Source: an uncultured delta proteobacterium
Lineage (GTDB): Bacteria > Desulfobacterota > Binatia > UBA9968
Length of the DNA: 64,000 nucleotides
NCBI GenBank assembly: GCA_963771465.1
Contig: CAVYTU010000005.1
Coordinates: forward strand, 59,957-123,956
Direction of reading: 5' to 3'
In this document: piece after piece, positions 2,828-8,581 of the stretch
Layout of the letters: every line of letters starts with the position of its first letter
Position numbering within the stretch: position 1 is the stretch's first letter
Program-made: the position numbers and the translations under genes
Notes under the pieces: model-generated
Told to the model about the DNA's origin: nothing
What the model saw: the letters and a program-made list of their open reading frames with translations, nothing else
The model's database searches: none

Positions 2828-3822
2828 TTAAAACCGGCCTTCTTTCTCTAGTTTTCTAAGCACGCTGTCGTCGATCAATTCTTCAGCTTTTAACCGGCGA
2901 ATCTTTTCATTGGTTGTGCCGAGCAGGCGGATCACGTTGCGAATGCCGTCGACGCTTGGATAAATTTTCTTGTCATAGATTGTCGGCAAGCTTTGATAGC
3001 CTTCCTCGGCGTCTTCGAGCCGCGGCAGACGCATGCCTTTAGCAACGGCGCGGATCACTTCAGATTTGTTGGCGGGATTCCTGATAAAAGTCACCGCGTC
3101 GAGTAATCCTTTGAAAACACTTTCGGCGGTCGCCGGTGACGACTTCATGAAGCTGCGCCGTGAGATCAGCCCCGAGCCTTGGTAGGCGATCGGCAGCTTT
3201 TCTACGTCGGCGAGCACCGTGTAGCCTTTGTTTTGTAGATTCTTTCCATGCGCATAACCGACCAGGACGGCGTCCACTGTGCCGGCCATGAAACCTTGCA
3301 CCATGACGGTTTGATCGCCGAGTGAACGAAACTGTATTTTGTCACGCTCCGGCGACAGGCCCCAGTGATCGAGCGTGAGCATGGAAAAAATCCAGCCGCC
3401 GCCGCTCAGGCTATTGACGCCGACGCTTTTGCCTCTCAAGTCAGCCGGAGTTTTGATCTTCGGATGAGCCATGAACATGCCAGTGAGCCGGTTAATGAAG
3501 CCGGCGACGAAAACTAGCTCTGCGCCTTCGGCGATGGCGCCGAGATTGGCGCCGGACACCGAGCCCCAGTGAAACTGCGATTCACCCGAGCTGAGCGCGG
3601 CCATGCCGATGGGCCCGCTGCGCGTCTGGACGAAGTGTACGTCGACACCGTATTTGCGGAAGTAGCCTTGCTCCTGCGCGACATAGATCGCCGCTTCACG
3701 CTCGCTCACCGAGCCGGTGGTGAGCAGGACTTTGGTGAGCGGCGCGGCCGCGTCGAGCGGATTCAAACGGAGCCGCAAGAATCGAGGGACACAATTAGCA
3801 ATCCAAATGAACGAACCATCAT
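2828..3822 (-). CDS. NitT/TauT-family substrate-binding protein, frameshift in signal peptide
   Basis: YVAQEQGYFRKYGVD and DLRGKSVGV motifs; upstream MMVRSFGLLIVSL is in another frame. Confidence 0.8.
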
Positions 3823-3858: not shown

Positions 3859-4854
3859 TCACTTGATCAACTTGGTCGCGCGGGCGAGCAACTCCGGCGG
3901 AATCGTTAGGCCGATCTGCTTGGCTGTTTTCAGATTGACGACAAACTCGAACTTCATCGGCTGCTCAACTGGTAGATCGGCAGGCTTCGCGCCCTTGAGA
4001 ATTCTGTCGATGTAGTATGCGACGCGCCGGTAGCTGTCCGCTTGGTCCGCCGCGTAGTACATGAGCCCACCAGCATTTACATATTCACTTCTGAGGTACA
4101 TCGACGGCAACCGGCTCTTTAACGCCAAGGCCCACAATCCGTTTTTGGTTAGCACGTCATTAGCGGGCTCGCGAGCACGTAGAGTCCATCCGGGCGCTGC
4201 TTGTTCAGCGCAGCGAATACCTTCTCGAAACCGTCCGCATCTCGTAGCTCCCAAGGCTGAATAGTCAACCGCAGCGCACGCGCCGCGGCTGGGAGAACCT
4301 CTTTCAGCTCGAGTGCACTGCCCAGAGTAGCCGGATCGTAGAGAACCGCGACACGGGCAAGTTTCGGAACGGCTTCTTTGAGCAGCTCCAGCCGCTTCCC
4401 GCCTAGGTCTCTGGTAAGGTTTGTAATGCCGGTGACGTTGCCGCCAGGACGGGCAAGGCTTTCAATTAGGCCCGTCTTGACAGGATCGACCCCAGCGCCC
4501 ACCATAACGATAGGAATCGTCTTGGTCGCGTTCTTGGCCGCCTGGACCAGATCTGGCCCCGCCTGCTGCCACGATGATATCGACCTTGAGACGCACCAGC
4601 TCGGCCGCAAGCTCAGGAAACCGATCCCGCTTCCCCTCCGCATATCGGTACTCGATGGCGATGTTCTGTCCTTCTATGTAGCCACGCTCGCGCAGAGCCA
4701 GCCGAATTCCCTTGGAACGGGTGGACTCACTAGCTGGATCGACATTTGATACATACCCTATCAGAGGGACTTTCTTCGGCTGCTGCGCCCGGGCTGGAAA
4801 GGGAAGAGCCAAGAGTATCGAGCAGAAAGCTCGCCGAGTGATTCTGGTTTTCAT
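3859..4854 (-). CDS. ABC_sub_bind (TrpX-like) substrate-binding protein split by about two frameshifts
   Basis: AQQPKKVPLIGY, SLARPGGNVTG and ILKGAKPADLPVEQPMKFEFVVNLKTAKQIG spread over three frames. Confidence 0.85.
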
Positions 4855-4878
4855 TGGGTTGCTCACGTTACAGACGAA

Positions 4879-4960
4879 TGGAGTGTTGGAGTAATGGAGT
4901 ATTGGCATGTGTCCGGACCAATCACTCCATCACTCCAATACTCCACTATTCCATCACTCC
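4879..4960. repeat. Hairpin of tandem 8-mers (TGGAGTNN ... NNACTCCA), family A copy 1
   Basis: TGGAGTGT TGGAGTAA TGGAGTAT TGG, loop, then ATCACTCC ATCACTCC AATACTCC ACTATTCC ATCACTCC. Confidence 0.9.
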
Positions 4961-4966
4961 GCCTTC

Positions 4967-5528
4967 TCACGGCGTATTTTGCACCACCGGACGATTCAGC
5001 AACCGGTTCATCCAAGCTTTGACAATGGGTATGTCATCGCCAATCGTCGCTTGATAGCGTTCGAGCCGGCAGAAGAACGGGATGTAGGTGATGTCGGCCA
5101 ACGAGTAGTCGCCGGCGATAAAATCTTTGTTGCGCATCTCTTGATTCAAAGTCGCCAGATGTTGCTTCATCTGTTCTTTGGACTTTTCGACTTGGTAGTC
5201 GTGCGCGACATTACCCGCGGCCGGCTTGTAAGCGCGTGTTGGCGAAGTCGATCCAGATGCGCGCCCGCGCCCGTTGGTAGGGATCTTTCGGCATCAGCGG
5301 TATCGCGGGAAATTTTTCCTCCAAGTATTCATCGATGATCGCCGACTCGTAGATCACTGCATCGCCATCTTCCAACACGGGGACTTTGCCGTAGGGATTG
5401 CGCTCGAGCAGCTCTTTCGATTTGTTCTTCAAGTCGCACTCGATGAGATCGTATGAGATGTTCTTTTCGGCCAGGACAATCCTTGTCCTGTGGGCGTAGG
5501 GTCAAGGCTGATAGGAAAACAATTTCAT
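4967..5528 (-). CDS. Glutathione S-transferase (omega/SspA-like), predicted selenoprotein (Sec at codon 9); one frameshift near 5222
   Basis: GGAGGTG SD, ATG 5528: MKLFSYQP-TGA-PYAHRTRIVLAEKNI...NPYGKVPVLEDG...ESAIIDEYLEE in one frame; C-terminal FIAGDYSLADI in the next frame. Confidence 0.85.
5472..5490 (-). promoter_or_regulatory. Putative bacterial SECIS element
   Basis: CAGGACAA-GGA-TTGTCCTG perfect 8-bp hairpin beginning 11 nt after the in-frame UGA (5504-5502), G-led loop. Confidence 0.75.
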
Positions 5529-5776
5529 GATTCACCTCCGTGGTTAAAGTTTAGTCGACGAGCCATTGGCAACGAATATAGGGGAGGCAGTAGACAATAG
5601 GCAACCGAAAAGGCATGGGGCGAGAGGCATGTAGTCATGGCCGCCGCTTTCAGCAAATTTCTTGGTGCGCGTAAAATAGGGCAGACAAACTGCGGCGTCA
5701 AGGAGAAATCTCCCCGCTATCGTTGTCTCGTTACGCATGTTTGTGGTTTAGAAATGAACCAGAGGAGTAACCAACA

Positions 5777-6817
5777 ATGCTGTTACCATTTCGTGAACAC
5801 TTAGACTTCGGACCGACGCCGTATGATTTGCTGCAACAGAAAGAAGGAATTCCGATCGTCAAAGGCAATGTCGTTAAGGACGTGACGACTTTGGAGCTGG
5901 GCCATTGGCAGCGCATGGGCGTTCCCGGTTGTTATATAAACTTATCCAACCAGCAGCGGACCGATGCTTACGTGTGCGAGATTCCGCCGAGCGGCCAGAG
6001 CTTGCCGCAGCGCCACCTCTTCGAAGAAATTGTTTATGTCGCCAAGGGACACGGTGCGACCTCGGTATCGCAGGAGGGCACAGCGAAGGTGACGTTCGAG
6101 TGGGGACCGGGGGCGATCTTCGCGATCCCGCTCAATTCGACCTACGTGCACTTCAACGGCTCGGGCAACGAGGTGATCCGTTTGTTTGTCGGCACGACTT
6201 GTCCGGCCATGATCAATATTTTTCACAATGAGGATTTTATCTTTCGCAATCCGTTCAACTTTCGCGATCGCTTTCACGAGGGCGATGAGTTCCTTCGTTA
6301 CAACAAGCATGTGACGGATCGCTACTGGGAGACCAATCTGGTTCCCGACGTCAACCAATTCCCGCTCGACGATTTTCCGATGAAGGGGAAGAACGTCAAG
6401 CATATGCGCTATACATTGGCGGATACGACCTACGGTTGTCACGTGTCGGAATTCCCCGCGGGCTGCCGCAGCACGTTTCACCGTCACGGGCCCGGCGCTG
6501 TCATCATCATCACGCAGGGCGAAGGTTACGTGGTGTTGTGGAAGGACGGCGAGGAGCGCCAGCGCCATGAATTTCAAGTCGGCACGGTGTATTCGCCCGA
6601 CGATCTCATGTGGCACGGCCATTTCAATACTGGTACGGGGACGATGCGCCACTTCGCCATGCGCGGCGACAGCCCGAAATACAGCCACGACCGCTTTCGC
6701 AATCCGGCCTGGACGATGATTCCAATGAGCGACGAGGACCCGGCGATCCAGCGAGAATACGTCGAGATTCTCCAGCGCAAAGGGGTGAAAGCGGCGCTGC
6801 AGGTGGTGGAAGACTGA
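5777..6817 (+). CDS. Bicupin (gentisate-dioxygenase-like) protein
   Basis: Two cupin motifs: QRHLFEE...YVHFN and FHRHGPG...WHGHFN; GAGGAG SD. Confidence 0.75.
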   Translation: MLLPFREHLDFGPTPYDLLQQKEGIPIVKGNVVKDVTTLELGHWQRMGVPGCYINLSNQQRTDAYVCEIPPSGQSLPQRHLFEEIVYVAKGHGATSVSQEGTAKVTFEWGPGAIFAIPLNSTYVHFNGSGNEVIRLFVGTTCPAMINIFHNEDFIFRNPFNFRDRFHEGDEFLRYNKHVTDRYWETNLVPDVNQFPLDDFPMKGKNVKHMRYTLADTTYGCHVSEFPAGCRSTFHRHGPGAVIIITQGEGYVVLWKDGEERQRHEFQVGTVYSPDDLMWHGHFNTGTGTMRHFAMRGDSPKYSHDRFRNPAWTMIPMSDEDPAIQREYVEILQRKGVKAALQVVED

Positions 6818-6821
6818 AGAG

Positions 6822-7281
6822 AATTAAAAATGCAAAATTAAACATTAAAAAAGGGGAGGCGACCATGGAATTAAATAAGGCGCCGGCCATTACGGTGAGA
6901 TGCTTCGATTTTGCCGTCAACGTCGTTGCTTCTGTCAAAAACTCGACACGAAGCCGGGAGTAAGCCGGATTTTGAGTCGGCAGCTTCTACGATCTGGCAC
7001 CTCAGTGGGAGCGAATGTCGAAGAAGCACAAGCCGCGCAAAGCACCGCGGACTTTGTCAGCAAATGTTCGATCTCACTCAGAGAAGCCCGCGAATCAAAT
7101 TATTGGCTGCGATTGTTGGAAGCCTCGGGCGAAAATGCAAGTGATGACCTCAAGCTCTTGGCGCGTGAAGCGGATGAACTATCACGTATCATCGGTACGA
7201 TCATTGTCAAAACTAAGAACCGGCGAAAAGATCAGTAAACTTGCTTCCCCTTTTTTAACTTTTAATTTTGAATTTTTAATT
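6822..7281 (+). mobile_element. Four-helix-bundle gene cassette bounded by 40-bp terminal inverted repeats
   Basis: 6822-6861 vs reverse complement of 7242-7281: 35/40 identical; AT-rich 7-mer periodicity in a GC-rich context; mobility itself is inferred. Confidence 0.6.
6865..7238 (+). CDS. Four-helix-bundle protein (23S rRNA-IVS protein / TIGR02436-like), one frameshift near 6925
   Basis: MELNKAPAITVRCFDFAVNVV then QLLRSGTSVGANVEEAQAAQSTADFVSKCSISLREARESNYWLRLL signature. Confidence 0.9.
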
Positions 7282-8425
7282 ATCTCAGCGGCAGCTCCTC
7301 CGCCTTCAGTCCGAACCAGTTCTTGGCATTCTCACCCAGGACGTGTCTCAGCTTGTCTTCCGTCATACCGGGGATTTTTCTTACTTCTTTAACCGAGTCG
7401 GGGAATTCGGAATCCCAGTGGCGGTAGTCGGAGGCGTACATGACTTGGTTGATGCCGATGGTGTCGAGCACGTAGGGCAAGATCGCTTCTTCCGGCTCGC
7501 AGGTGAAGGCAACTTGCGAGCTCTTGATGATTTCGGACGGTTTGCGTTTGAGCAGCGGCCACTGTGGGCGGAGCTTGTGAAAATGCTCGTCCAATCTTTC
7601 CGACCAGAATGGCAGCCAGCCGCAGGCGCCTTCCATGAAGCCAACTTTGAGTTTGGGAAAGCGGTCGAACACGCCTTCGCCGATCATGTGCATGAGTGCG
7701 ATCATTAATTCAAAAGGGAACGCGGTCATGTGCACGTAGCTGTATTTCTCCATGCGCTCGCTGCCGGCGCCCATAACGCCCCAGACACCGTACTGGCCGT
7801 CATGTTCGGTTTGTGGATGGACCGACAACGGTATGCTCAGGTCCTGCGCGGCGGCGTAAACCGGATCGAACATGCGGTGGCCCAAATTGATGCCATAAAC
7901 ATTGGTCGGTAGCATGGCGGTGACGATGGAGGCGCGCTGCTTGGCGAGAAATTCCAACTCCTTCACCGCCGCCGGCGGGTCTTGCACCGGGATTAGACCA
8001 ACACCTTTCAAACGTTTCGGATCAGGGGCGAGATATTCTTCGACTAACCAGCGGTTGACGGCGTGGCATAGGACCGCGGCGAGCGGCTTGTCGGCCATGC
8101 CGTTAACCATCAACGCGATCGAGGTGCCGAAAATGATCGCGACATCGATGCCTTCCTCATCCATGTCAGGCAAGCGCTTGAGTGGGTCGGTCATGCCCGG
8201 CCGGCTGCGTTCGATGTGCTCGGCGAAAACTTCGCCGCGATCGGCGCCGCCGCCCCAACGGCGTCGGCCGGCGAGGCGGCCTTCGATCATCAAGTGGGAA
8301 TAACCGGAACTGTCGGTGACGCGGTTGGGCGCGAGATGGGCCATTTCCTTCGGCATCCACTTCGCCAATTGATTATCCGGTTCGTAGCAATGTCCGTCGG
8401 CATCGATCACGAAGTTGGACGTCAT
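7280..8425 (-). CDS. Amidohydrolase family 2 (LigW/ACMSD-like) protein
   Basis: IDADGH metal motif, DMDEEGID, FDRFPKLKVGFMEG, YASDYRHWD. Confidence 0.85.
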   Translation of the reverse strand: MTSNFVIDADGHCYEPDNQLAKWMPKEMAHLAPNRVTDSSGYSHLMIEGRLAGRRRWGGGADRGEVFAEHIERSRPGMTDPLKRLPDMDEEGIDVAIIFGTSIALMVNGMADKPLAAVLCHAVNRWLVEEYLAPDPKRLKGVGLIPVQDPPAAVKELEFLAKQRASIVTAMLPTNVYGINLGHRMFDPVYAAAQDLSIPLSVHPQTEHDGQYGVWGVMGAGSERMEKYSYVHMTAFPFELMIALMHMIGEGVFDRFPKLKVGFMEGACGWLPFWSERLDEHFHKLRPQWPLLKRKPSEIIKSSQVAFTCEPEEAILPYVLDTIGINQVMYASDYRHWDSEFPDSVKEVRKIPGMTEDKLRHVLGENAKNWFGLKAEELPLR

Positions 8426-8581
8426 AAATTCTCCTTTTTTGGCCGGGCGAGATTTTGTTTTCTTCCTAGTTGGGTTCTGCAACAATTGCAACTGAAACGA
8501 TTGCGCGGGCGGCTAGTTTCTGGTTAGCAAGGATGGAGTAAGTGGATTCACCGCGGCGGGAGCATTGGCGGAGAGGAAATT

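What the first reader, a model, noticed from the sequence alone, without database searches (positions are those of the whole stretch)
4967..5528. Hidden selenocysteine-containing glutathione S-transferase (U-P-Y-A) with SECIS-like hairpin
Seen: GGAGGTG SD and ATG 5528 read MKLFSYQP-TGA-PYAHRTRIVLAEK, in frame with the GST ORF the track starts at 5432. A perfect hairpin CAGGACAA-GGA-TTGTCCTG begins 11 nt after the UGA. Known: the UGA sits at the catalytic Cys of the CPY(A) motif of omega/SspA-like GSTs, and bacterial SECIS elements are G-loop hairpins just 3' of the UGA. Inference: a recoded selenoprotein thiol-transferase that gene callers would truncate. Sec-GSTs have been predicted before but are uncommon.
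Basis: partly seen in the sequence, partly recalled or inferred. Interest (0 to 1): 0.8.

Follow-up and report, generated by a model that had tools for sequence, protein, structure and literature searches.

The report
Selenocysteine glutathione S-transferase with SECIS hairpin
This is a real glutathione S-transferase gene whose catalytic residue is selenocysteine encoded by UGA, a rare but already predicted kind of selenoprotein that gene callers cut short, and the copy in this window also carries a one-base insertion that is probably an assembly error.

Summary
On the minus strand, GGAGGTG (5539-5533) and ATG (5528) open a GST frame with an in-frame TGA at codon 9 (5504-5502). A perfect 8-bp hairpin with a GGA loop (5490-5472) starts 11 nt after it.

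The Sec reading is strongly supported:
- The genome has tRNA-Sec, selA, selB and selD.
- 75 of 76 published related loci carry TGA at this codon. The other has TGT (Cys) and a degraded hairpin.
- A match occurs in 115 of 123 genomes of the order.
- Synonymous variation collapses at the hairpin codons only.
- The hairpin meets the four published bSECIS constraints.

The window has one extra base at 5221-5225, so the frame stops at TAA 5213-5211 and the C-terminal domain continues in another frame. Three relatives' contigs listed as crossing the site lack one base there, and a fourth shows one unplaced gap. The assembly also shows an excess of one-base insertions. I read the break as an assembly error (about 0.75).

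The parts
5533..5539 (-). Shine-Dalgarno-like GGAGGTG, 4 nt before the ATG
   Evidence: Read directly. A purine-rich GGAGG-type stretch sits before the start in most orthologues.
5526..5528 (-). Start codon ATG of the full-length GST
   Evidence: Codons 1-8 keep their residues while synonymous sites vary: Leu3 is Leu in 75 of 75 loci and uses 6 codons. The stretch before the TGA is therefore under coding selection.
5502..5504 (-). In-frame TGA, codon 9, read as selenocysteine (U in the motif P-U-P-Y-A-H-R)
   Evidence: TGA is present in 75 of 76 published related loci and TGT in the other one. The column aligns with the Ser of WPSPFSHR in 7dwf and the Cys of TCPFSQR in SspA 6v91.
5472..5490 (-). 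bSECIS-type hairpin: 5' arm 5490-5483, loop GGA 5482-5480, 3' arm 5479-5472. There are 19 nt between the UGA and the loop.
   Evidence: -9.2 kcal/mol alone. Over 66 distinct sequences, 97.2% of cells are paired and 5 of 8 pairs are invariant; one pair has 2 compensatory changes and 6 mismatches. Synonymous variation is lost at codons 13-19. The hairpin is lost in the Cys form.
5214..5525 (-). N-terminal frame (GST N-terminal thioredoxin-like domain), which ends at TAA 5213-5211 as assembled
   Evidence: Pfam GST_N_3 74.8 bits, GST_N_2 71.9, GST_N 67.2.
5221..5225 (-). Frame break: one extra base within GCCGG relative to relatives
   Evidence: Pairwise alignment with L022. A base is 'left out' at 5221 in X1 (1 of 1 contig) and in the RNA run X15 (1 of 1), and at 5225 in X3 (1 of 1). 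The X5 contig over 5026-5357 has 1 gap whose place is not listed.
4970..5220 (-). C-terminal frame (GST C-terminal helical domain), shifted by one base
   Evidence: Translation. Pfam GST_C 45.4 bits, GST_C_2 26.6. Collinear with residues about 103-186 of the orthologues.
4967..4969 (-). Stop codon TGA of the gene
   Evidence: It shows that TGA is also an ordinary stop here. TGA ends 1426 of 3636 ORFs of at least 300 codons in the genome.
4870..4954 (-). Long imperfect hairpin made of TGGAGT-type repeats, just after the stop (terminator or REP-like element)
   Evidence: -53.3 kcal/mol, z = -8.05, and 0 of 200 shuffles fold as well. A similar element follows the G024 orthologue.

Best explanation
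The locus encodes a 186-residue cytosolic-type glutathione S-transferase of the Cys/Ser-type omega / tau / SspA-like group. Its active-site residue, at the start of helix alpha-1 in the motif P-U-P-Y, is selenocysteine.

Proposed decoding (inferred): translation starts at ATG 5528. SelB carrying Sec-tRNA(Sec) binds the 8-bp hairpin with the G-G-A loop that lies 11 nt after the UGA, and inserts Sec at UGA 5504-5502.

Proposed chemistry (inferred from Cys-type GSTs): the selenolate attacks glutathionylated or disulfide substrates and forms a selenenyl-sulfide with glutathione. The enzyme would then be a thiol-transferase or reductase rather than a conjugating GST.

Shown here: the TGA and hairpin are conserved, the Sec machinery and glutathione synthesis genes are present, and a Cys homologue exists. 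Not shown: Sec insertion itself and the enzyme's chemistry.

The copy in this window has one extra base at 5221-5225 that breaks the frame. This is most likely an insertion error of the assembly (about 0.75) rather than a real, recent pseudogene.
For: Sec machinery in the same genome:
- tRNA-Sec scores 76.7 bits against a cut-off of 47, and ARAGORN calls tRNA-SeC with anticodon tca.
- selA scores 614 bits, selB 358.6 bits, and selD 376 bits with its own in-frame TGA.

Conservation of the TGA:
- In the whole order, 115 of 123 genomes and 27 of 27 genera have a match at E <= 1e-33. That is 111 of 119 without the four unpublished genomes.
- 149 of the 150 listed matches contain exactly one TGA.
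- At codon level, 75 of 76 published loci have TGA at codon 9 and one has TGT.
- Most genomes carry a second Sec paralogue. G000's own copy on C17 is intact.
- A third, 43%-identical paralogue (L142) also has TGA. Its hairpin is at the same spacing, and two of its pairs have changed on both sides.

Hairpin:
- Codon entropy at codons 13-19 is 0-0.58 bits. For example Val18 is GTC in 75 of 75 loci and Arg16 is AGG in 75 of 75. Elsewhere in the gene, Leu, Val and Pro codons show 1.1-2.3 bits.
- The Cys form uses AGA / CGA / ATC at these codons and loses the fold.
- The hairpin meets the constraints quoted from the Fig. 2 legend of PMC13188914: loop of 3 nt, stem of 8 bp, G in the first two loop positions, 19 nt spacing, and -9.2 kcal/mol.
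- selD of the same genome has the same apical architecture...CAA-GUU-UUG..., with 33 nt spacing.

Protein:
- Pfam GST_N and GST_C domains are present.
- The PDB search gives E = 9e-31 to a GST, then SspA, tau and omega GSTs, with U aligned to Ser or Cys.
- gshB (393.9 bits) and plant-type glutamate-cysteine ligase (476.7 bits) are both over their cut-offs.

Frame break as an error:
- The three contigs listed as crossing 5221-5225 (runs X1, X3 and the RNA run X15) each lack one base there. The X5 contig has one gap whose place is not listed.
- 6 of 66 G024 ORFs are split over frames in G000, against 0 of 71 in the reverse control.
- Across those six genes G000 has 9 one-base extras and 1 one-base lack.
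- selB is split at a TTTAAA run.
- The neighbouring PF04392 gene is in three frames.
Against: - No experiment or mass spectrum shows Sec in this protein.
- Covariation is thin because the hairpin is almost invariant. Among 66 sequences, only 1 of 8 pairs has changes on both sides (2 sequences), and the same pair is a U-U mismatch in 6.
- RNAalifold keeps only 4 pairs, with a covariation term of 0.
- The fold of the 66-nt stretch is no more stable than shuffles (z = -0.15).
- No Rfam family matches at E <= 10.
- The Cys-form contrast rests on a single DNA locus (L112).
- As assembled, this copy is broken, and selB of the same assembly is split too. Real loss of Sec decoding in this strain is therefore not excluded.
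- No run held more than 0.41 of the sampled words. The reads behind this assembly were not seen, and the laid contigs come from relatives 90-99% alike.
Confidence: 0.9

Rival explanations
1. This strain's copy is a real pseudogene. The Sec-GST family is real in relatives, but here a true one-base insertion has inactivated the gene, perhaps along with a truly broken selB and decaying Sec use.
For: As assembled the frame is broken. selB of the same genome is also split. The reads of the source assembly were not available.
Against: The break is one of many one-base extras in this assembly: 6 of 66 genes are split against 0 of 71 in the control, and there are 9 extras against 1 lack. The next gene is in three frames. 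selD with its in-frame TGA, the second Sec-GST paralogue and their hairpins are intact. Apart from the one base, the gene is 93% identical in protein to an intact orthologue and has no other damage.
Confidence: 0.2
2. The TGA is an ordinary stop and the real protein starts downstream, as databases annotate it. That protein would be a truncated GST-like protein of 146-159 residues without the first strand and helix.
For: Most of the 120 listed database homologues are called this way, at 129-177 residues covering 69-95% of the query. Some are named 'glutathione S-transferase family protein'.
Against: The eight codons before the TGA, the start codon and a ribosome-binding site are conserved with synonymous variation. 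The truncated calls start at different places (LKNK..., MIECD..., MAEKK..., MYAHR...) and would lack the catalytic residue and part of the thioredoxin fold. A full-length Cys form exists (P0064, 186 aa, 149 member sequences).
Confidence: 0.03
3. The UGA is read through by something other than Sec: a reassigned code, or near-cognate Trp or Cys insertion helped by the hairpin.
For: One database entry (P0011) was translated with W at this codon. Nothing here measures which residue is inserted.
Against: TGA is the commonest stop of long ORFs (1426 of 3636) and ends this very gene. The full Sec machinery is present. The hairpin fits the bSECIS constraints and resembles that of selD in the same genome. 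The natural replacement seen is Cys, the usual Sec counterpart.
Confidence: 0.03

Closest known systems
GST-like selenoprotein family (Zhang, Fomenko and Gladyshev 2005, Sargasso Sea, PMC1088965; listed in the 2026 review PMC13188914 with PF13409). I saw passages and tables only.
   Same: It is a glutathione S-transferase with an in-frame UGA read as Sec, predicted by computation, with widespread Cys homologues. PF13409 matches here at 71.9 bits.
   Different: The 2005 set was 4 marine metagenome sequences. Here the gene is near-universal in a whole order of soil and sediment bacteria whose named records are labelled Candidatus Binatia or Deltaproteobacteria MAGs, and it occurs in two to three paralogous Sec clades. 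I could not fetch the published example sequences, so whether they belong to the same clade is untested. The papers' supplements were closed and may hold the alignments.
Cys-type GSTs: omega class (for example human GSTO1, PDB 1eem) and stringent starvation protein A-like proteins (PDB 6v91, 4qq7)
   Same: Same two-domain fold by sequence (E = 1.6e-29 to 2.3e-27). The catalytic position is followed by Pro and an aromatic residue. The Cys of SspA 6v91 (TCPFSQR) aligns with U. From general knowledge, such enzymes act as thiol-transferases or reductases through a mixed disulfide with glutathione.
   Different: Sec replaces Cys. No NCBIfam model reaches its cut-off: SspA scores 108 bits against a cut-off of 314. 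It is therefore not an SspA orthologue or any other named subfamily.
Tau-class (Ser-type) GSTs (PDB 7dwf, 4chs, 2vo4)
   Same: These are the best sequence matches among solved structures (E = 8.9e-31). U aligns with the Ser of WPSPFSHR.
   Different: From general knowledge, Ser-type enzymes activate glutathione for conjugation. A Sec or Cys at this site points to redox chemistry instead.
Bacterial SECIS consensus (the bSECISearch model, as quoted in the Fig. 2 legend of PMC13188914)
   Same: All four quoted constraints are met.
   Different: It is a minimal element: a triloop on a perfect 8-bp stem, with no bulge and no conserved lower stem. bSECISearch itself was not run.

Membership tests
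Glutathione S-transferase superfamily (cytosolic type) | N-terminal thioredoxin-like domain followed by an all-helical C-terminal domain | tested here: met
   Pfam GST_N_3 74.8, GST_N_2 71.9 and GST_N 67.2 bits on the N-terminal frame; GST_C 45.4 bits on the C-terminal frame. All are over their cut-offs, and both domains lie in one chain in the intact orthologue L022.
Glutathione S-transferase superfamily (cytosolic type) | Glutathione-site residues: the cis-Pro of the V-P motif and the E-S pair before helix alpha-3 (motif names recalled, not from a call) | tested here: met
   GKVPVL and YESAI are present in the window and in all orthologues printed. K48, V49, P50 and Y60 are each kept in 99-100% of 75 loci. 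Their role is inferred from general knowledge.
Glutathione S-transferase superfamily (cytosolic type) | Catalytic residue (Cys, Ser or Tyr) at the start of helix alpha-1 | tested here: met
   U9 aligns with the Ser of WPSPFSHR (7dwf) and the Cys of TCPFSQR (6v91). Paralogues in the same genome have Ser there (L042-L044). No structure was predicted.
Bacterial selenoprotein | Sec-decoding machinery (selA, selB, selC, selD) in the same genome | tested here: met
   all over their cut-offs. Caveat: selB is split over two frames in this assembly.
Bacterial selenoprotein | In-frame UGA conserved among orthologues, with Cys in homologues at the same column | tested here: met
   75 of 76 published loci have TGA and 1 has TGT. 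The Cys-form protein cluster P0064 has 149 member sequences.
Bacterial selenoprotein | bSECIS after the UGA: loop 3-9 nt, stem 4-16 bp, G in the first two loop positions, 16-37 nt spacing, MFE <= -7.5 kcal/mol (PMC13188914, Fig. 2 legend) | tested here: met
   Loop GGA, 8 bp, 19 nt spacing, -9.2 kcal/mol. The constraints were applied by hand, not by bSECISearch.
Bacterial selenoprotein | Selenium actually incorporated at the UGA | not testable with these tools
   Needs 75Se labelling or mass spectrometry.
Published GST-like selenoprotein family (2005 Sargasso set; example accession in the 2026 review) | Sequence membership in the same clade, with Sec at the same column | not testable with these tools
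   The tables give only COG0625 / PF13409 and an accession. The sequences could not be fetched and supplements were closed. PF13409 does match here.
Stringent starvation protein A (NF007016) | Score over the curated cut-off of the equivalog model | tested here: not met
   108.4 bits against a cut-off of 314.

The most novel reading that the evidence does not exclude
In this order of uncultured bacteria the Sec-GST is a fixed, near-universal core enzyme that has duplicated into two or three Sec-retaining clades. All keep an almost invariant minimal SECIS (an 8-bp stem closed by A-U pairs under a G-first triloop) that selD of the same genome shares. That would make it the best natural system for asking why a GST needs selenium, and would define a lineage-specific SelB recognition motif usable to find the rest of this lineage's selenoproteome. 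Public annotation of most of the 120 listed homologue clusters as N-terminally truncated GSTs would then be systematically wrong.
Probability: 0.5. Interest if true: 0.45.

Novelty: new member of a known kind. Interest (0 to 1): 0.35.

Why it matters
Sec-containing GSTs have only been predicted by computation. The 2026 review (passages seen) says the functions of such families remain largely uncharacterised.

This case adds three things:
- A lineage where the Sec form is the rule: 111 of 119 published genomes of the order.
- A natural Cys counterpart for comparison.
- A very small, well-defined SECIS.

On the practical side, most public homologues listed are truncated calls that lack the active-site residue, so annotation pipelines miss this selenoprotein. 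The case also shows that this assembly carries one-base insertion errors that break genes, including selB, which matters for any other finding drawn from this window.

Tried and rejected
- Rfam scan of 4900-5700 at E <= 10: no match.
- RNAalifold on 66 sequences kept only the 4 invariant pairs, with no covariation term.
- The single-sequence fold z-score was unremarkable.
- Phylum-wide sample of 400 other genomes at E <= 1e-33: only 1 match, in the same family. This clade was not found outside the order among those searched. The threshold is strict, so more distant Sec forms would be missed.
- The look-up of sequencing runs: no run held half of the sampled words (best 0.41). The reads behind this assembly could not be examined, and only Logan contigs of relatives were laid.
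- In one search no other letter at 5502-5504 is among the 40 rows shown, but 128 rows are not shown.
- The RNA-library contig (X15) covers 5113-5504 and runs on upstream. The tool warns that this does not prove transcription.
- A genome scan for hairpins of the form AA-G[G/T]N-TT placed 16-37 nt after an in-frame TGA gave 10 hits. Only the two GSTs and selD look like genes, so it is not a selenoproteome survey.
- NCBIfam: no model over its cut-off.
- Literature: 'Binatia' with 'selenocysteine' gave 0 papers.
- Programmed frameshifting at 5221-5225 was considered and rejected, because the intact orthologues printed are in one frame there.
- No structure prediction or complex prediction was run.

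Full report
**1. What is in the sequence**

All features below are on the minus strand.
- GGAGGTG lies at 5539-5533, four bases before ATG 5528-5526.
- The frame reads MKLFSYQP, then TGA (5504-5502), then PYAHRTRIVLAEK. It stays in frame with the TTG-started ORF that a gene caller would report from 5432.
- Eleven bases after the TGA comes CAGGACAA-GGA-TTGTCCTG (5490-5472), a perfect 8-bp stem with a 3-nt loop. It folds at -9.2 kcal/mol alone and at -11.2 kcal/mol within 66 nt. That 66-nt stretch is no more stable than shuffles (z = -0.15).
- Perfect 8-bp hairpins with 3-9 nt loops occur 19 times per strand in the 64-kb window, and 14 per strand have a G in the first two loop positions. One at the right spacing from a given TGA is expected about 0.5% of the time (my arithmetic).

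**2.

The interval 4967-5528 is not one frame.
- The N-terminal frame runs into TAA at 5213-5211. The C-terminal GST domain continues in another frame down to the TGA stop at 4969-4967.
- Alignment with the closest orthologue (L022 from G024, 93% protein identity) shows a single extra base in the window inside GCCGG at 5221-5225, and no other indel in the gene.
- Orthologues are 186 residues in one frame.

**3. Is the TGA a Sec codon?**

Machinery:
- The window's genome (G000, 6.9 Mb, 19 contigs) has a tRNA-Sec at 76.7 bits against a gathering score of 47. ARAGORN calls it tRNA-SeC with anticodon tca.
- It also has selA (614 bits), selB (358.6 bits) and selD (376 bits, itself with one in-frame TGA). 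These three lie next to each other on contig C14.
- TGA is otherwise a normal stop. It ends 1426 of 3636 ORFs of at least 300 codons, and it ends this gene.

Conservation:
- A first search of 40 relatives found an orthologue with exactly one TGA and an open frame of about 187-230 codons in nearly all of them. Most had a second paralogue at about 65% identity that also contains one TGA.
- Over the whole order, 115 of 123 genomes have a match at E <= 1e-33. That covers 27 of 27 genera, and 55 of 58 genomes of high quality.
- 149 of the 150 listed matches contain one TGA.
- Four of those genomes are flagged unpublished, and all four have a match. Without them the count is 111 of 119.
- In a phylum-wide sample of 400 other genomes, only one (same family) matched at that threshold.

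Codon level:
- I fetched 78 loci. Of these, 77 have TGA at this codon and one (L112) has TGT.
- Leaving out the two loci from unpublished genomes gives 75 TGA and 1 TGT out of 76.
- A third, more distant paralogue (L142, 43% identity, an intact 204-codon frame with its own ribosome-binding site) also has TGA followed by PYAQRTR.
- The eight codons before the TGA keep their residues while synonymous sites vary. Leu3 is Leu in 75 of 75 loci and uses six codons. They are therefore translated.

**4. Is the hairpin a SECIS?**

- Across the 75 Sec loci, codon entropy is 0-0.58 bits at codons 13-19 (H R T R I/L V L), which form the hairpin. Arg16 is AGG in 75 of 75, Val18 is GTC in 75 of 75, and Leu19 is CTG in 70 of 75.
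- Elsewhere in the gene, Leu, Val and Pro codons show 1.1-2.3 bits.
- The single Cys-form locus encodes the same peptide but uses AGA, CGA and ATC. This breaks three pairs and the GG of the loop, and no hairpin is predicted there (MFE -5.6 kcal/mol with a different fold).
- On 66 distinct Sec sequences, 97.2% of cells are paired. Five of eight pairs never vary. Pair 27-33 is A-U in 58, G-C in 2 (compensatory) and a U-U mismatch in 6. The two outermost pairs are broken in 4-5 sequences.
- RNAalifold keeps only the four invariant core pairs, with a zero covariation term. Covariation inside the main clades is thin, so the argument rests on synonymous-site constraint and its loss in the Cys form.
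- L142 adds support. Its hairpin is at the same 11-nt distance, has the same GGA loop, and has two pairs changed on both sides: C-G to G-C at the base, and A-U to G-C.
- The 2026 review quotes the bacterial SECIS model as follows: loop 3-9 nt, upper stem 4-16 bp, a G in the first two loop positions, 16-37 nt between UGA and loop, and MFE <= -7.5 kcal/mol (PMC13188914, Fig. 2 legend, passages seen). The values here are 3 nt, 8 bp, GG, 19 nt and -9.2 kcal/mol.
- selD of the same genome has UCGCGCAA-GUU-UUGCGCGA with 33 nt between UGA and loop. This is the same 8-bp stem, closed by two A-U pairs under a G-first triloop.
- No Rfam family matches.

**5. What protein is it?**

- Pfam finds the GST N-terminal domain on the first frame and the GST C-terminal domain on the second. 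Both lie in one chain in the intact orthologue.
- Among solved structures the best matches are a GST (7dwf, E = 8.9e-31), SspA-like proteins (6v91, 4qq7), tau-class GSTs and omega-class GSTs.
- In the printed alignments, U falls on the Ser of WPSPFSHR (7dwf) and on the Cys of TCPFSQR (6v91).
- No NCBIfam model reaches its cut-off; SspA scores 108 bits against 314. It is an unnamed subfamily of the omega / tau / SspA-like group.
- The genome has gshB and a plant-type glutamate-cysteine ligase, both over their cut-offs, so glutathione is available.
- Paralogues without TGA in the same genome carry Ser at this column.
- By analogy with Cys-type GSTs (general knowledge, not tested here), I expect a thiol-transferase or reductase that cycles through a selenenyl-sulfide with glutathione.

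**6. The frame break**

Logan contigs of three DNA runs and one RNA-library run from soil and rhizosphere metagenomes were laid at 90% likeness or better.
- A base is left out at 5221 in X1 (1 of 1 contig) and in X15 (1 of 1), and at 5225 in X3 (1 of 1).
- The X5 contig over 5026-5357 has one gap, but its place is not listed.
- Over the 2-kb stretch laid, the shown rows list 11 places where contigs lack a base of the window and 1 place where they have an extra base. Eleven further rows are not shown.

The assembly as a whole shows the same pattern.
- Of 66 ORFs of at least 250 codons from 237 kb of G024 that have an orthologue at 75% identity or more in G000, 6 are split over frames in G000.
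- In the reverse control, 0 of 71 G000 ORFs are split in G024.
- In those six genes I count 9 one-base extras and 1 one-base lack in G000. The alignment ends are rough.
- selB is split where a TTTAAA run sits.
- The PF04392 substrate-binding gene just downstream of the GST is in three frames that match profile positions 12-69, 73-190 and 203-292 in turn.
- selD, the second Sec-GST paralogue and their hairpins are intact.

I conclude that the extra base is most likely an assembly insertion error (about 0.75). A real, very recent pseudogene remains possible, because no run held more than 0.41 of the sampled words and the source reads were not seen.

**7. Comparison with what is known**

- A glutathione S-transferase selenoprotein family (4 sequences, COG0625, with widespread Cys homologues) was reported from the Sargasso Sea metagenome in 2005 (PMC1088965, tables seen).
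- The 2026 review lists a 'GST-like protein' with PF13409 and says that nearly all such families were found by computation and remain largely uncharacterised (PMC13188914, passages seen).
- The kind is therefore known. I could not fetch the published sequences, and supplements were closed, so whether this clade is the same subfamily is open.
- A full-text search for 'Binatia' with 'selenocysteine' found no paper. Named relatives are labelled Candidatus Binatia or Deltaproteobacteria MAGs.
- In the protein database most of the 120 listed homologues are truncated, at 129-177 residues covering 69-95% of the query. Some are named 'glutathione S-transferase family protein'. One was translated with W at the TGA. 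One cluster (P0064, 186 residues, 149 member sequences) is the full-length Cys form.

**8. Verdict**

- The gene is a Sec-containing GST with a minimal bSECIS, and it is a new member of a known but little-studied kind.
- The copy in this window is frame-broken by one base, probably an artefact of the assembly.
- Interest is moderate. The lineage-wide fixation, the two to three Sec paralogues and the nearly invariant SECIS make a good experimental system, but the concept is not new.

Noticed in passing
window 4870-4954 (minus strand): A long imperfect hairpin made of TGGAGT-type repeats lies directly after the GST stop codon (-53.3 kcal/mol, z = -8.05). A similar element follows the G024 orthologue. 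TGGAGT-N(1-3)-TGGAGT occurs 54 times in the genome. It may be a terminator or a REP-like dispersed element.
   Followed up: partly
window 3859-4908 (minus strand): An ABC-transporter substrate-binding gene (PF04392) is split into three ORFs in three frames that match consecutive parts of the profile. Relatives' contigs lack single bases at 4131 and at 4155/4156. These are probably assembly insertions, like the one in the GST.
   Followed up: partly
G000:C14:198726-200613 (L011 1380-1620): selB is split over two frames near residue 28, at a TTTAAA run. If real it would abolish Sec decoding. More likely it is another one-base error.
   Followed up: partly
G000:C17:841564-841866 (L041) and L142: There is a second, intact Sec-GST paralogue in the same genome (65% identity, same hairpin). 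In a named Binatia-labelled MAG there is a third Sec clade at 43% identity, with a compensated hairpin.
   Followed up: partly
G000:C14:200741 (selD): selD is itself a selenoprotein. Its SECIS is UCGCGCAA-GUU-UUGCGCGA with 33 nt between UGA and loop, and it shares the apical architecture of the GST hairpin.
   Followed up: partly
window 5777-6817 (+), 6900-7238 (+), 7280-8491 (-), 2828-3778 (-): The neighbours are a bicupin protein (divergent from the GST), a 23S rRNA-intervening-sequence protein family member, an Amidohydro_2 protein and an NMT1-like binding protein. The flanks are not shared with the G024 orthologue, so the GST looks like a stand-alone gene.
   Followed up: no
G000:C14:13177-14205 (L015): A translation-factor-like match contains one in-frame TGA. 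I did not examine it.
   Followed up: no
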